Program-made: the position numbers and the translations under genes | IMG/VR virus record: IMGVR_UViG_3300045988_064981 | Location: 1 to 34,585 of that record | Direction: 5' to 3' (one strand) | Origin: a virus | Length of the DNA stretch: 34,585 nucleotides | The notes under the pieces: generated by a model | What the model was told of the DNA's origin: nothing | Database searches by the model: none | Seen by the model: only the letters and a program-made list of their open reading frames with translations | Part shown: positions 30,030 through 32,134 of the stretch, one piece after another | Position numbering within the stretch: position 1 is the first letter of the stretch | Layout of the letters: every line of letters starts with the position of its first letter

Positions 30030-30437
30030 ATGAATGGATATGGCAATCCTTACGGCTACCCCTATAGCCCCGGATATCAGCAGCAGATGTACGGGCAGCA
30101 AATGCCGCAGCGGTATGAGCTGGTCAAAGTCAGCGGACGCGGCGGCGTGGACGCGCTCCGGGTTGCGCCGCGAAGCGAGCTGCTTGCAATGGACACGTCC
30201 CGCGCCGACGTGCTGCTCGCGTGGTACATCCAGGCGGATGACGCAGGTTATAAGTCGGTGACGCCCTACGTGCTGACACCTTACACCGATCCCGCGCCGA
30301 TTGATGCAACGAACATCGAGCAGAGGCTCAAGAGATTGGAGGAGATCATTGATGGCAAATCCGTTGCTGGCAAGCCTACAAAAGCAGACCGCGCCGCAGC
30401 AGCCCGCCAACCCGTTGCAGATGCTGGCGGAGTTTAG
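30030..30437 (+). CDS. Hypothetical protein with Tyr/Gly/Gln/Pro-rich N-terminus
   Basis: SD AGGAGGTGGAG, ATG at 30030. NGYGNPYGYPYSPGYQQQMYGQQMPQRYELVKVSGRGGVDALRV... Confidence 0.65.
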   Translation: MNGYGNPYGYPYSPGYQQQMYGQQMPQRYELVKVSGRGGVDALRVAPRSELLAMDTSRADVLLAWYIQADDAGYKSVTPYVLTPYTDPAPIDATNIEQRLKRLEEIIDGKSVAGKPTKADRAAAARQPVADAGGV

Positions 30438-30621
30438 GCGCTTTGCGTCCGGCATCATCCCGTTGCAGATGCTGGCGGAGTTTAGGCGCTTTGCGTCCGG
30501 CATCACCCCGCAGCAGGCGCAGACAAAAGTCGAAGAGCTGCTGCAATCCGGGCAAATGTCGCAGGAGCAGTTTGAGAGCCTAAAAAAACCGGCGCAGGAT
30601 TTTATGGAGTTTCTTAAATAG
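30352..30621 (+). CDS. Gln-rich small protein carrying an internal 16-aa perfect duplication
   Basis: SD GGAGGAG, ATG at 30352. PLQMLAEFRRFASGI occurs twice. It overlaps the previous ORF by 86 nt. Confidence 0.55.
   Translation: MANPLLASLQKQTAPQQPANPLQMLAEFRRFASGIIPLQMLAEFRRFASGITPQQAQTKVEELLQSGQMSQEQFESLKKPAQDFMEFLK
30411..30506 (+). repeat. Perfect 48-bp tandem duplication (2 units, differing only at the last base)
   Basis: cccgttgcagatgctggcggagtttaggcgctttgcgtccggcatca[t/c] at 30411..30458 and 30459..30506. In frame (16 codons). Confidence 0.95.
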
Positions 30622-30674
30622 CCGGTGCGCAACGGCTATTTGTGAATAAATCTATCAAAAAAGGAGTGTGCGTA

Positions 30675-31334
30675 ATGGACAATAATTACAGTCTCTCTGA
30701 TCTGCGTGCGGCGGTCGGCGACGAAGACAAGGGCTTCGGCGGCGGCATGGGCGCATGGTGGATCATCATCCTCTTTTTGTTTGTCTTTATGGGCGGCGGC
30801 TTTGGCGGCTGGAATCGTCAGCAGGTGCAGCCGGGCGAGTTTGGCCAGTATGCGACCGCTGCCAGCCAGCAGCAGATCCTGTTTGGGCAGCAGTTTGGCG
30901 AGATCAACGACCGCCTGACGGCGCTGGGCAACGGCGTGGCGTCGCTGGGCTACGATATGCAGGGCAGCCTCGGTCAGCTTGGCAAGGACATCGCCCTCGG
31001 CCAGGCGGGCACCAACACCACGATCATGCAGACCGGCAACGCCTTGCAGCAGCAGATCGCGTCCTACTGCTGTGAAAACAGGCTGGCAACCGCCAACCTC
31101 TCGGCGCAGATCGACCGTCAGACCTGCGACATTACCACCGCGATCCACGCAGAGGGCGAAGCGACGCGCAACCTGATCCAGACCAGTGAGATTCAGCGGC
31201 TCCGCGACAAGGTCGCTGGGCTTGAGATGGACAGCCGGATGTGCGGCGTAGTCCGCTATCCCATGTCCTACTCCTACAACGCCGGACCCTCCCCGTTTTG
31301 CGGGGGCGGTTGCAATTGCGGCGTGAATATGTAA
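30675..31334 (+). CDS. Membrane protein, Gly/Gln-rich with Cys motifs (unknown family)
   Basis: SD AAAGGAG, ATG at 30675. TM segment GAWWIIILFLFVFMGGGFGGW. Motifs YCCENR and QTCDI, and C-terminus FCGGGCNCGVNM. Confidence 0.7.
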   Translation: MDNNYSLSDLRAAVGDEDKGFGGGMGAWWIIILFLFVFMGGGFGGWNRQQVQPGEFGQYATAASQQQILFGQQFGEINDRLTALGNGVASLGYDMQGSLGQLGKDIALGQAGTNTTIMQTGNALQQQIASYCCENRLATANLSAQIDRQTCDITTAIHAEGEATRNLIQTSEIQRLRDKVAGLEMDSRMCGVVRYPMSYSYNAGPSPFCGGGCNCGVNM

Positions 31335-31370
31335 CCAACTGAGCAATGGCCCATTAGGCCGACAACATGA

Positions 31371-31399
31371 GCGGCAGGGTGTAAACCCTGCCGCTTTTT
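31371..31399 (+). terminator. Rho-independent terminator
   Basis: gcggcaggg-tgtaaa-ccctgccgc followed by ttttt. Confidence 0.75.
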
Positions 31400-31418
31400 G
31401 AAGAAAGGAGTTTGTAAT

Positions 31419-31823
31419 ATGGCACGCAATCTGATCTATACGGTAAACACCACGGGCGCCGCCGCGCCGATCGGCAGCACCGTCCCTGTGGGCAGCATCA
31501 TCCGGCGGTACGGCAAGTGCATCAGCGCCGAGGGCGAGAGTATCGTGCTGCTTGAGCCGGGAGATTATCTTGTGACGATGACTGCGACCGCGACGGCAGC
31601 GACCGTCGGAAACGTGGCGCTTGGCATCCAGCAGGACGGCGTCGCCGTGCCGGGAGCGACCGCAACGGAGACCGTTGCGACAGCAGGCACCGAATACGTC
31701 AATCTGTCGTTCGCCCCCATCGTGCGCGTGAGATGCTGCGGCAATGCGCGTCTCACCGTTGTGGTTGCCGGCACGACTGAGCCGACGATCACCAACCTTG
31801 CGATTGGAGTGGTCCGCGTATGA
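31419..31823 (+). CDS. BclA C-terminal-domain-like (TNF/C1q-like jelly-roll) protein without collagen repeats
   Basis: SD AAAGGAG. The pattern PGDYLVTMTATATAATVGNVALGIQQDGVAVPGATATETV...VNLSFAPIVRV...ARLTVVVAG...NLAIGVVRV resembles exosporium BclA-CTD-type domains by eye. Confidence 0.5.
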   Translation: MARNLIYTVNTTGAAAPIGSTVPVGSIIRRYGKCISAEGESIVLLEPGDYLVTMTATATAATVGNVALGIQQDGVAVPGATATETVATAGTEYVNLSFAPIVRVRCCGNARLTVVVAGTTEPTITNLAIGVVRV

Positions 31824-32134
31824 TGGACATATTGACGTCGATCTATGGTCAGGTGGATGAGGAGATCCAGGACGCGAGGGACTATGCGGCGGACGCGATG
31901 CGCTGCAAATCGTCGCACCCGGAGCTTGCCCAGATCTACATCAAGCTGTCCGGCGAGGAGATTCAGCATGCGCAGATCTTGCAGGGAGCGGCAGCGCATC
32001 AGGTCGCGACGCAGGATCAAGCGCACCCGCTGTCCAACGACGGCAAGACGCTTACGGACTGGATCAAATCGTGTCAGGACGAGCGCATCCGCGATGTAAA
32101 GCGTATGCATGAGGCATACCAGGCTGCGAAGTAG
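31820..32134 (+). CDS. Small helical protein, ferritin-like/CotF-like pattern
   Basis: ATGA coupling. DEEIQDARDYAADAM...PELAQIYIKLSGEEIQHAQIL has a four-helix-bundle-like E-x2-H motif. Confidence 0.45.
   Translation: MMDILTSIYGQVDEEIQDARDYAADAMRCKSSHPELAQIYIKLSGEEIQHAQILQGAAAHQVATQDQAHPLSNDGKTLTDWIKSCQDERIRDVKRMHEAYQAAK

What the first reader, a model, noticed from the sequence alone, without database searches (positions are those of the whole stretch)
30030..32134. Five-gene cargo cluster of unknown function next to the integrase, including a BclA-C-terminal-like protein
Between a double terminator and the attP/int region lie five genes. (1) A protein with a Tyr/Gly/Gln/Pro-rich N-terminus (NPYGYPYSPGYQQQMYGQQMPQ). 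(2) A Gln-rich small protein whose gene overlaps the first by 86 nt. (3) A membrane protein with a Gly-rich TM segment, YCCENR/QTCDI motifs and a CGGGCNCG tail. (4) A 134-aa protein whose pattern resembles the TNF/C1q-like C-terminal domain of exosporium BclA-type proteins but lacks collagen repeats. (5) A small ferritin/CotF-like helical protein. Tyr-rich, Cys-rich, BclA-like and CotF-like features are all reminiscent of spore-surface proteins. That raises the possibility that a prophage modifies the spore or cell surface of its host (lysogenic conversion). None of these assignments is firm.
Basis: partly seen in the sequence, partly recalled or inferred. Interest (0 to 1): 0.6.

Follow-up and report, generated by a model that had tools for sequence, protein, structure and literature searches.

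The report
Conserved gut-phage stalk-and-knob gene cassette
The five genes beside this gut phage's integrase are real and form a widespread, self-contained phage cassette: a membrane-anchored cysteine-rich rod, a protein folded like the Bacillus spore-surface protein BclA, and three small partners. Its job is unknown, and it is not tied to spore-forming hosts.

Summary
All five genes exist as described and are under purifying selection (dN/dS 0.03-0.40).

The BclA call holds. Gene 4 matches BclA_C by sequence. A confident model fits BclA, F-BclA and ExsFA/BxpB (TM 0.78-0.85).

The "private spore-surface cargo" reading does not hold:
- Genes 1-4 keep the same order in all 23 informative close relatives, and in remote low-GC versions.
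- The same set occurs in Clostridium perfringens siphophages isolated as lytic, with no integrase annotated.
- It occurs in three Bacilli-class genomes lacking SpoIVA, Spo0A and SpoVAC.
- Four of the five proteins match no described family. No paper on the set was found.

The cassette follows the lysis genes and a small sigma-region-4-like regulator gene. It carries its own conserved leader and ends at a terminator.

My best reading: gene 3 is a membrane-anchored helical rod, probably N-out/C-in, that works with the gene 4 trimer and low-complexity partners at the envelope of the infected cell. Function is unknown. A very late, lysis-linked role (about 0.3) and superinfection exclusion (about 0.2) are the main candidates.

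This scan has noted the same module on at least 13 other genomes.

The parts
26182..26403 (+). Small sigma-70 region-4-like HTH gene (73 aa), the last gene of the lysis transcription unit. It is the probable dedicated regulator of the cassette. Here it is separated from the cassette by 3.5 kb of inserted accessory operons.
   Evidence: Pfam Sigma70_r4_2 gives E 5e-4, below the cut-off. The equivalent gene directly upstream of g1 in L001 scores 26.2 bits, above the cut-off. No + strand terminator lies between the endolysin and this gene. A strong terminator follows at 26405-26432. The same gene family sits directly upstream of g1 in L006, L025 and L026. Regulation of the cassette by this gene is inferred, not shown.
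29927..29970 (+). Start of the cassette's own conserved leader. It contains four 11-nt units, three of which carry TGTCCC(C/T). This is a candidate regulator-binding array.
   Evidence: A 22-nt direct repeat was found. Similarity to relative L055, which has different upstream genes, begins here and is near-perfect up to g1. Function is inferred.
29951..29979 (+). Candidate promoter TTGACA-17-TGACAT embedded in the leader hairpin. The -35 is perfect and the -10 is weak.
   Evidence: Read from the sequence. It is not reported by the consensus scan because the -10 is poor. A start just downstream would leave out the 5' arm of the hairpin. This is an inference.
29959..29996 (+). 17-bp hairpin followed by T9, resembling an intrinsic terminator. 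It lies inside the conserved leader, about 30 nt upstream of the g1 start codon, and probably insulates the cassette from read-through.
30030..30437 (+). g1 (135 aa). It has a disordered Tyr/Gly/Gln/Pro-rich N-terminus, a compact alpha/beta domain, a short coiled-coil helix and a disordered tail. It has no signal peptide.
   Evidence: AlphaFold2: residues 1-27 and the C-terminus are below pLDDT 55, residues 28-90 are about 95, and there is a helix at 93-107. No PDB fold match at E<=1e-3. No Pfam, PHROG or NCBIfam family. Homologues are listed.
30352..30621 (+). g2 (89 aa). A small Gln/Met-rich helical protein that overlaps g1 by 86 nt. It carries a private 48-bp (16-aa) tandem duplication at 30411-30510.
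   Evidence: phrog_22984 E 5e-11 (unknown function) and a weak SHOCT match, E 0.002. Duplication. g1/g2 overlap also occurs in L001, L008, L035 and the C. perfringens phage.
30675..31334 (+). g3 (219 aa). The cassette's anchor protein. It has an acidic N-tail, a Gly-flanked hydrophobic segment (about residues 27-39), an amphipathic helical rod (about 58-190) with a CC(C) motif, and a Pro/Cys-rich C-terminal tail.
   Evidence: phrog_16490 E 3e-12. 5,468 and 767 homologues. The N-flank averages +0.7/-3.6 charges, and 43 of 44 sequences are more acidic on the N side. Hydrophobicity has a 3.65-residue period, matched by 0 of 500 shuffles; Gly/Pro is low at 121-190; C132/C133 are conserved in 34-39 of 44 and C213 in 38 of 44. 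The best profile hit in the PDB is the trimeric coiled coil of YbgF/CpoB, E 0.007.
31419..31823 (+). g4 (134 aa). A stand-alone BclA-C-terminal-like TNF/C1q jelly-roll with a conserved vicinal CC. It has no collagen repeats, no leader and no signal peptide.
31820..32134 (+). g5 (104 aa). A small helical protein, possibly ferritin/rubrerythrin-like (E...EExxH). It is translationally coupled to g4. This slot varies among relatives: the same family, DUF7841, or other helical proteins.
   Evidence: Rubrerythrin E 0.059; the homologue in L010 gives E 0.007. No PDB sequence match. Slot variation.
32191..32217 (.). Bidirectional terminator-like hairpin closing the cassette, ahead of the attP/integrase region.

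Best explanation
The five genes are one copy of a conserved, mobile, self-contained phage cassette. It consists of a small sigma-region-4-like regulator gene at the end of the lysis operon, a private leader/promoter region, then g1-g5.

Proposed assembly:
- g3 sits in the cytoplasmic membrane. Its short acidic N-tail faces out. Its long helical, probably trimeric, cysteine-bearing rod lies in the cytoplasm.
- g4 is a BclA/ExsF-like TNF-fold trimer. It associates with g3, possibly by docking the Pro-rich C-terminal tail of g3, much as ExsF docks collagen-protein leader peptides.
- g1 (prion-like low-complexity head, small alpha/beta domain, coiled coil) and g2 (made by coupled translation with g1) act as adaptors.
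- g5 is an exchangeable helical accessory.

The complex acts at the envelope of the infected cell for the phage's own benefit. My preferred reading is a very late, lysis- or egress-linked function switched on by the regulator that is made together with the holin and endolysin.

Shown:
- The genes are real.
- The cassette is conserved, mobile and widely distributed.
- g4 has the BclA-like fold.
- g3 has the anchor-rod-tail anatomy.

Inferred:
- The topology of g3.
- The g3-g4 contact.
- Control by the regulator.
- Timing and function.
For: Real and conserved:
- dN/dS is 0.03-0.40.
- The order g1-g2-g3-g4 is kept in all 23 informative close loci. It is also kept in remote low-GC versions: L028, L035, L036, L007, the C. 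perfringens phages, L058, L059 and L061.

Mobile and self-contained:
- The cassette sits behind different holins, endolysins, tails and integrases.
- Similarity to a close relative with different upstream genes starts at the leader.
- Terminator-like hairpins lie on both sides.

Linked to lysis:
- It lies downstream of the holin/endolysin genes in every informative context. Downstream of it comes an integrase, replication genes or genes of unknown function (one with a faint Mtd_N hit).
- The regulator gene is the last gene of the lysis unit here. No terminator lies before it and a strong one lies after it.
- In L001 the regulator gene runs straight into g1 through a terminator-like hairpin read from the sequence. 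The L025/L006 type looks the same in that sequence.

Not spore-specific or lysogeny-specific:
- It occurs in lytic-type C. perfringens phages with no integrase annotated.
- Complete cassettes occur in G508 and G754, which lack SpoIVA, Spo0A_C and SpoVAC. The positive control G412 has all three.

Anatomy:
- g3: acidic N-flank, helical periodicity and conserved Cys, plus weak matches to trimeric coiled coils.
- g4: TNF-like jelly-roll with TM 0.78-0.85 to BclA, F-BclA and ExsFA.
- By inspection of the sequences, none of g1, g2, g4 or g5 has a signal peptide or lipobox. This favours a cytoplasmic-face complex.
Against: - No experiment or transcript data exist.
- The g3 topology rests only on flank charges.
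- No g3-g4 fusion was found among the longer family members inspected, and no complex could be modelled.
- In some variants the fourth slot holds an unrelated Cys-bearing beta protein instead of a BclA-like one.
- The layout of private leader, flanking terminators and att-proximal position is also what a prophage-expressed moron looks like.
- One bacterial contig keeps only this cassette of the prophage. That would fit a host-beneficial, lysogen-expressed function.
- In L011-type relatives the genes upstream are divergent and no sigma-like gene was detected.
- The cassette is present in only about 2% of sampled genomes. It is therefore accessory, not a core lysis function.
Confidence: 0.35

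Rival explanations
1. Superinfection exclusion or another envelope-level protection. It would be expressed from the cassette's own promoter in lysogens, and early in lytic phages. g3 would sit in the membrane and, with its partners, block DNA entry by other phages or protect the host membrane.
For: - The architecture is moron-like: a private leader with a perfect -35 box, a terminator-like hairpin that would stop read-through from upstream, and a terminator downstream.
- It sits in the att-proximal slot where such genes usually lie.
- The N-terminal tail of g3 is short, conserved and acidic, and is probably exposed outside.
- The cassette alone is retained, intact, on a 655-kb bacterial contig next to an IS element.
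- In the C. perfringens phages and in L064 it lies at the head of the early/replication gene block.
Against: - No match to PADLOC models, and no match to any PHROG family with an assigned function; the module's PHROG matches are all to families of unknown function.
- To my knowledge, known exclusion proteins are single small membrane proteins or lipoproteins, not five-protein sets with a cytoplasmic TNF-like trimer.
- The likely regulator is transcribed with the lysis genes.
- The retained remnant may simply be the end of a decayed prophage.
Confidence: 0.2
2. One reading: lysogenic conversion of the spore or cell surface. g4 would be a BclA/ExsF-like surface unit. The Tyr-rich and Cys-rich partners would be cross-linked coat- or exosporium-like material assembled in the mother cell.
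For: - The closest solved relatives of g4 are exosporium proteins: BclA, F-BclA and ExsFA/BxpB.
- Vicinal cysteines occur in g3 and g4.
- Spore-coat proteins also lack signal peptides.
- The nearest carrier genomes have SpoIVA, and the remnant contig has BofA.
- All 8 Clostridia-class carriers in the sample have SpoIVA.
Against: - The SpoIVA background in that class is 77% (305 of 399). Eight of eight therefore has p of about 0.12.
- Complete cassettes occur in genomes lacking three sporulation markers.
- The cassette occurs in phages isolated as lytic, with no integrase annotated.
- g4 has no collagen repeats and no exosporium leader.
- No module protein matches CotF, ENA (DUF3992/DUF4183), CotY/ExsY or any other coat family.
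- The same TNF/C1q fold is common in phage fibre tips and capsid proteins.
Confidence: 0.08
3. A virion accessory or assembly function. g4 would be a decoration or fibre-knob protein added to the particle, with g1-g3 acting as assembly helpers.
For: - g4 weakly matches the XM1 gp53 minor capsid protein (Pfam E 4.5e-4) and a 'minor head protein' PHROG (E 0.04).
- The structural neighbours of g4 include phage tail-fibre tips.
Against: - The cassette is separated from the head and tail genes by the lysis cassette and by terminators.
- g4 has no attachment domain.
- A membrane-anchored partner would be unusual for a tailed-phage particle.
- The only virion proteome paper for the related C. perfringens phages is not held in the library.
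Confidence: 0.1

Closest known systems
BclA C-terminal domain (Pfam PF18573; PDB 1wck, 2r6q, 3twi) and F-BclA tip domain (PDB 9h38) of Bacillus exosporium nap and endospore appendages
   Same: g4 has the same TNF/C1q-like jelly-roll. TM-scores are 0.75-0.82 with 15-23% identity, and sequence similarity is detectable directly (E 1e-4 to 3e-7).
   Different: - g4 has no collagen-like stalk and no N-terminal exosporium-targeting leader.
- It is phage-encoded.
- It scores below Pfam's gathering cut-off (30.7 against 38 bits).
- Its family carries a conserved vicinal CC.
- It occurs in genomes lacking sporulation markers.
ExsFA/BxpB (ExsF) exosporium basal-layer protein (PDB 7r1m, 8d02, 9h3d)
   Same: It is a stand-alone TNF-like domain of similar size and gives the best TM-scores (0.83-0.85). 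ExsF docks leader peptides of partner proteins. That suggests how g4 could hold the Pro-rich tail of g3.
   Different: Identity is only 13-17%. Peptide docking by g4 is pure inference. The partner would be a membrane-anchored coiled-coil protein, not a collagen-like fibre.
Eukaryotic TNF-family ligands (type II membrane anchor, stalk, trimeric TNF-homology head)
   Same: The overall anchor-stalk-trimeric-head design. Foldseek matches to EDA, APRIL, 4-1BBL and C1q are listed.
   Different: - Here the anchor/stalk (g3) and head (g4) are separate genes.
- The predicted topology puts the rod in the cytoplasm.
- There is no evolutionary link beyond the fold.
Phage morons / lysogenic-conversion and superinfection-exclusion genes in the lysis-to-attP slot (general knowledge of lambdoid and lactic-acid-bacteria phages)
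   Same: The position between the lysis genes and attP, a private promoter region, flanking terminators, and movement between unrelated phages.
   Different: - It is a conserved five-to-six-gene set with its own regulator.
- It is conserved from 30% to 60% G+C phages.
- It is also present in phages with no integrase annotated.
Spanins (Rz-type i-spanin: N-terminal anchor, coiled coil, cysteines)
   Same: g3 shares the N-terminal anchor, helical rod and conserved cysteines, and lies next to the lysis genes.
   Different: - No lipoprotein partner: no lipobox in g1, g2, g4 or g5.
- The hosts are monoderm Clostridia and Bacilli.
- The flank charges of g3 point to a cytoplasmic rod.

Membership tests
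BclA_C (PF18573) / TNF-C1q-like fold, for g4 | Sequence match to the family model at or above the curated cut-off | tested here: not met
   30.7 bits against a cut-off of 38. However, E is 3e-7 over model positions 2-118 of 128, most homologues carry a precomputed PF18573 hit, and phmmer to BclA chains gives E 1e-4. g4 is a divergent relative, not a threshold member.
BclA_C (PF18573) / TNF-C1q-like fold, for g4 | Ten-stranded jelly-roll fold superposable on the BclA C-terminal domain | tested here: met
   AlphaFold2 pLDDT 90.1. Foldseek gives BclA E 4e-9 with TM 0.78, F-BclA TM up to 0.82 and ExsFA/BxpB TM 0.85.
BclA-type exosporium collagen-like glycoproteins | N-terminal exosporium leader plus collagen-like GXX repeat stalk before the C-terminal domain | tested here: not met
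   g4 is 134 aa and starts directly with the jelly-roll. No GXX repeats occur in g4 or in any neighbouring gene. Family members are 127-147 aa.
BclA-type exosporium collagen-like glycoproteins | Homotrimer formation | not testable with these tools
   Only single-chain prediction was available.
Spore coat / exosporium or endospore-appendage proteins (CotF, CotY/ExsY, ENA DUF3992/DUF4183), for g1, g3, g5 | Match to any of these family models | tested here: not met
   No such Pfam or NCBIfam match at E<=1 for any of the five proteins or their remote counterparts.
   8 of 8 Clostridia-class carriers have SpoIVA, but the background is 77%. In the Bacilli-class sample, 4 of 9 carriers lack SpoIVA, and 3 of those also lack Spo0A_C and SpoVAC. 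G508 and G754 among them hold complete cassettes. Genome completeness is unknown.
Ferritin-like / rubrerythrin superfamily, for g5 | Match to a ferritin-like model and E...ExxH metal-site motifs | tested here: inconclusive
   Rubrerythrin gives E 0.059 for g5 and 0.007 for the L010 homologue, both below the cut-off. DEEIQD...EEIQH is visible in the sequence. No PDB sequence match.
Lysogenic-conversion moron | Own promoter and terminator, independent of late transcription | tested here: inconclusive
   A conserved private leader, a hairpin and a downstream terminator are present. The promoter has a weak -10 and is not confirmed.
Lysogenic-conversion moron | Carried by temperate phages and expressed in the lysogen | tested here: not met
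   The cassette is also present in C. perfringens phages with no integrase annotated and in L064 between lysis and replication genes.
Known anti-phage defence systems | Match to PADLOC models | tested here: not met
   0 families for all five proteins at E<=1.
Two-component spanins | i-spanin plus an outer-membrane lipoprotein partner in a diderm host | tested here: not met
   No lipobox or N-terminal Cys in g1, g2, g4 or g5. Carriers are Clostridia- and Bacilli-class genomes.

The most novel reading that the evidence does not exclude
The cassette encodes an undescribed multi-protein phage machine shared by thousands of phages of gut Firmicutes. Its parts would be a membrane-anchored trimeric cysteine-clustered rod, a BclA/ExsF-like knob held through the rod's Pro-rich tail, and prion-like low-complexity adaptors. 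A dedicated sigma-region-4-like factor made at the end of the lysis operon would switch it on. Its function at the cell envelope would fall outside the known phage categories of holin, endolysin, spanin, exclusion protein or virion part.
Probability: 0.3. Interest if true: 0.75.

Novelty: categorically new. Interest (0 to 1): 0.55.

Why it matters
- Scale. g3 has 5,468 hits among 90%-identity clusters, yet no name, Pfam family or paper. It is the hallmark of a four-to-six-gene set kept in order from 30% to 60% G+C phages. A set this conserved, with its own regulator and leader, very probably does something important for phages of gut Clostridia and Bacilli.
- Annotation. It corrects a tempting error. 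A BclA-like hit next to an integrase invites the label "spore-surface conversion", which the distribution does not support.
- Testability. Cultivable C. perfringens siphophages carry the cassette, so the question can be tested by gene removal.
- Concept. If g4 docks the g3 tail as ExsF docks its partners, the exosporium anchoring principle would have a phage counterpart.

Tried and rejected
- Encapsulated-ferritin resemblance of g5, recalled from memory. phmmer of g5 and of its L010 homologue against the PDB found nothing relevant. Dropped.
- BhlA/UviB-type holin resemblance of the extra small TM/coiled-coil gene in low-GC variants. No Pfam hit. Dropped.
- Fold of g1. The model is confident for residues 28-90, but Foldseek found no PDB match at E<=1e-3. 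The best matches were SH2-like at E 0.09, which is noise. The profile against PDB sequences also found nothing.
- ENA/appendage idea, from the F-ENA paper PMC12357932. No DUF4183/DUF3992 match in any module protein.
- Homology of the alternative fourth-slot protein ('MACKNxC' family) to g4. hhalign probability 0.6% and no PDB hit.
- Natural g3-g4 fusions. None among the longer family members inspected.
- SpoIVA enrichment among carriers. Not significant against a 77% background.
- Defence models. PADLOC gave nothing.
- The search for related loci with the diverse g3 alignment failed because no stretch was conserved enough. A single protein was used instead.
- The virion-proteome paper for phiCP39O/phiCP26F (PMC4127328) is not held.
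- Taxon names of carrier genomes are hidden by the tool. Host identity beyond 'Oscillospiraceae / Clostridiales / Bacilli MAGs' could not be read.
- The TGTCCC motif is not clustered elsewhere in the window.

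
Full report
**What is there**

The window is a complete 34,585-bp phage genome with direct terminal repeats. Its layout is:
- tape measure, Dit, Tal and fibre genes up to about 23.3 kb;
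- a lysis unit: a SpoIID/M15 endolysin at 24021-25310, a membrane/coiled-coil protein of unknown family, a small membrane protein (candidate holin) and an LLH-family holin;
- a 73-aa sigma-70 region-4-like gene at 26182-26403;
- a strong terminator at 26405-26432;
- two accessory operons at 26452-29930, noted by earlier readers;
- the five genes of the finding;
- a bidirectional terminator;
- the tyrosine integrase on the other strand.

g1 and g2 overlap by 86 nt. g4 and g5 overlap by ATGA.

They are real genes. dN/dS is 0.03-0.40 against a roughly 97%-identical relative and 0.12-0.33 against a distant one.

**The BclA call is right**

- g4 matches Pfam BclA_C over nearly the whole model. E is 3e-7 at 30.7 bits, below the 38-bit cut-off.
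- It matches BclA chains of the PDB directly at E 1e-4.
- A 52-sequence alignment gave an AlphaFold2 model with pLDDT 90.
- The best PDB neighbours are the BclA C-terminal domain, the F-BclA tip domain and ExsFA/BxpB, at TM 0.78-0.85. TNF ligands and C1q heads follow.
- In the viral structure library the nearest models are uncharacterised 130-150-aa phage proteins, two of them already labelled 'BclA protein'.
- g4 has no collagen repeats and no leader. In format it is closer to ExsF than to BclA.

**The rest of the set has no described family**

- g1: no Pfam, PHROG or NCBIfam hit.
- g1's model shows a disordered Tyr/Gly/Gln-rich head and a confident small alpha/beta domain (residues 28-90, pLDDT about 95). 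A short helix and a disordered tail follow. No PDB fold match reaches E 1e-3.
- g2: hits only an unknown-function PHROG (E 5e-11) and, weakly, SHOCT.
- g3: hits an unknown-function PHROG (E 3e-12).
- g3's family alignment shows a conserved N-terminal 'SLADIAAV'-type motif and a Gly-flanked hydrophobic segment. Next come a helical region with a CC(C) motif, then a 'VVRYP...PFCxCxC' tail.
- g3's flanks differ in charge. The N-flank is acidic (mean 0.7 positive, 3.6 negative). In 43 of 44 sequences it is more negative than the C-flank, which starts with a conserved Arg. With Pf3-coat-type insertion in mind (general knowledge), I read this as N-out/C-in.
- Residues 58-190 of g3 have a 3.65-residue hydrophobic period, matched by 0 of 500 shuffles. 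Gly and Pro are almost absent at 121-190.
- g3's best PDB profile hits are trimeric coiled coils: YbgF/CpoB at E 0.007, with trimeric autotransporter and P22 needle fragments far weaker.
- g5: gives only sub-threshold Rubrerythrin hits.
- PADLOC finds nothing for any of the five.

**It is a module, not private cargo**

g3 has 5,468 hits among 90%-identity clusters, mostly on contigs of 33-45 kb. It has 767 representatives of 50%-identity clusters.

- g1-g2-g3 are adjacent in all 25 close relative loci, and g4 follows in all 23 that reach it.
- The same set is recognisable by eye and by position in remote low-GC versions. These show a Y/N/Q-rich g1 with the same core, a Met/Gln-rich g2 and a g3. 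The fourth slot holds either a BclA-like protein (hhalign E 4e-4; BclA_C E 6e-5) or an unrelated Cys-bearing beta protein. A helical protein follows.
- Carriers differ in holin family, endolysin type, tail genes and integrase. The set therefore moves as a cassette.
- The nearest relatives (about 97%) have a different 1.7-kb gene set between the regulator gene and g1. Nucleotide similarity resumes exactly at the leader, about position 29930.

**Tests of the spore and lysogeny idea**

1. Lytic-type phages. Six C. perfringens phages carry g3. In vB_CpeS-17DYC the g1-, g2- and g3-like genes lie about 3.5 kb after the holin, among early and replication genes. All but two short ORFs are on one strand. 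No integrase or repressor is annotated among the 64 features. The phage was isolated from wastewater on a C. perfringens strain and is close to phiCP13O (PMC10353432), from a group obtained by screening for virulent phages (PMC3118219).
2. A second case. In L064 the cassette lies between lysis genes and SNF2 helicase/dUTPase.
3. Sporulation markers in the Clostridia-class sample. 8 of 400 genomes carry g3, and all 8 have SpoIVA. The background is 77%, so this says little.
4. Sporulation markers in the Bacilli-class sample. 9 of 400 genomes carry g3.
   - SpoIVA was not found in four of them.
   - Spo0A_C and SpoVAC were also not found in three (G416, G508, G754).
   - The control G412 has all three markers.
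   - G508 and G754 hold complete cassettes.
   - Completeness of these genomes is unknown, so this is 'not found', not 'absent'.

For this phage itself the closest carriers do have sporulation genes. Examples are SpoIVA in G001 and BofA on the 655-kb contig L010.

**Regulation, as far as sequence goes**

- The sigma-r4-like gene is the last gene of the lysis unit here.
- Related or analogous small HTH genes sit directly upstream of g1 in L001, L006, L025, L026, L058 and L059.
- None was detected in L011-type loci, where the upstream genes are divergent.
- The leader that travels with the cassette contains three elements:
  - four 11-nt units, three of them with TGTCCC;
  - a TTGACA-17-TGACAT candidate promoter;
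  - a 17-bp hairpin with T9, ending about 30 nt before the g1 start codon.
- A transcript starting at that promoter would lack the hairpin's 5' arm. The hairpin could then stop read-through while letting the cassette's own transcripts pass. This is inference only.

**Reading**

I commit to a membrane-anchored rod (g3) working with the TNF-like trimer (g4) and the low-complexity partners on the cytoplasmic face of the membrane of the infected cell. None of g1, g2, g4 or g5 has a signal peptide, which fits this.

| Claim | My odds |
|---|---|
| Real, conserved, mobile cassette | about 0.95 |
| Family not spore-specific | about 0.8 |
| g3-g4 physical complex | about 0.4 |
| Very late, lysis/egress-linked function | about 0.3 |
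| Prophage- or early-expressed exclusion or protection | about 0.2 |
| Virion accessory | about 0.1 |
| Spore or cell-surface conversion | under 0.1 |

The remnant on L010 keeps only g1-g5 and one further gene, between an IS element and host genes. It fits a host-beneficial function, but it may simply be the end of a decayed prophage.

**Known before?**

- No paper describing the set was found.
- Notes of this scan record the same module on at least 13 other genomes, with similar conclusions.
- I re-tested three of their claims on my own data: carriers without sporulation markers, phages without an annotated integrase, and adjacency to lysis genes.
- I did not test two others: occurrence in Faecalibacterium, and occurrence in Bacteroides or methanogen viruses.

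**Limits**

- No multimer prediction was available.

Noticed in passing
window 26405-29930, compared with L055 3680-5400: The stretch between the sigma-r4-like gene and the cassette leader is a hotspot for swapping accessory genes. This phage has two operons (3.5 kb) there. Its roughly 97%-identical relatives have four different genes (94, 185, 123 and 71 aa; 1.7 kb). Similarity resumes at about 29930.
   Followed up: partly
window 30411-30510: A 48-bp in-frame tandem duplication adds 16 aa to g2. It is private to this genome. The closest relatives L055 and L057 have one copy, and g1, which ends inside the first copy, is unaffected.
   Followed up: yes
L010 9401-11751 (ENA ERZ28750607 contig_4679, 655 kb): A bacterial contig keeps only the cassette (g1-g5 plus a 104-aa gene), intact, between an IS-type transposase and MgtC. 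No other prophage genes are present. The g3 protein is identical to phage-borne copies. This is either a recent remnant or a domesticated copy.
   Followed up: partly
window 22001-23338: The 432-aa gene after the tail-tip genes has no PHROG match. It lies in the only low-G+C kilobase of the genome (47% against about 58-64% around it). This suggests a recently exchanged receptor-binding gene.
   Followed up: no
G003 (uncultured Bacilli MAG): L039-L044: One 2.1-Mb genome has seven matches to the g3 profile, on six contigs. This implies several prophages or fragments with the cassette in one host.
   Followed up: no
L035 4049-4468, L036 2187-2597, L002 5383-5742: In some low-GC variants the fourth slot holds a 119-139-aa protein with an N-terminal CxxC or CxxxCxxC motif and a beta-rich body. 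It is not detectably related to BclA_C and has no Pfam or PDB match. It is accompanied by a 73-77-aa membrane/coiled-coil protein.
   Followed up: partly
L064 991-2121 and L063 6955-7518: A reverse-transcriptase gene (RVT_1) lies near the cassette in L064, and a faint Mtd_N hit lies near it in L063. Some carrier phages may therefore have diversity-generating retroelements next to it.
   Followed up: no
L001 7122-7598, L011 8157-8642, L059 2592-3056, L063 6089-6535: In many variants a DUF7841 protein (Pfam E 8e-23 in L001), carrying a conserved 'DDG(S/T)TGGHW' motif, follows g4. It takes the place of the rubrerythrin-like g5.
   Followed up: no
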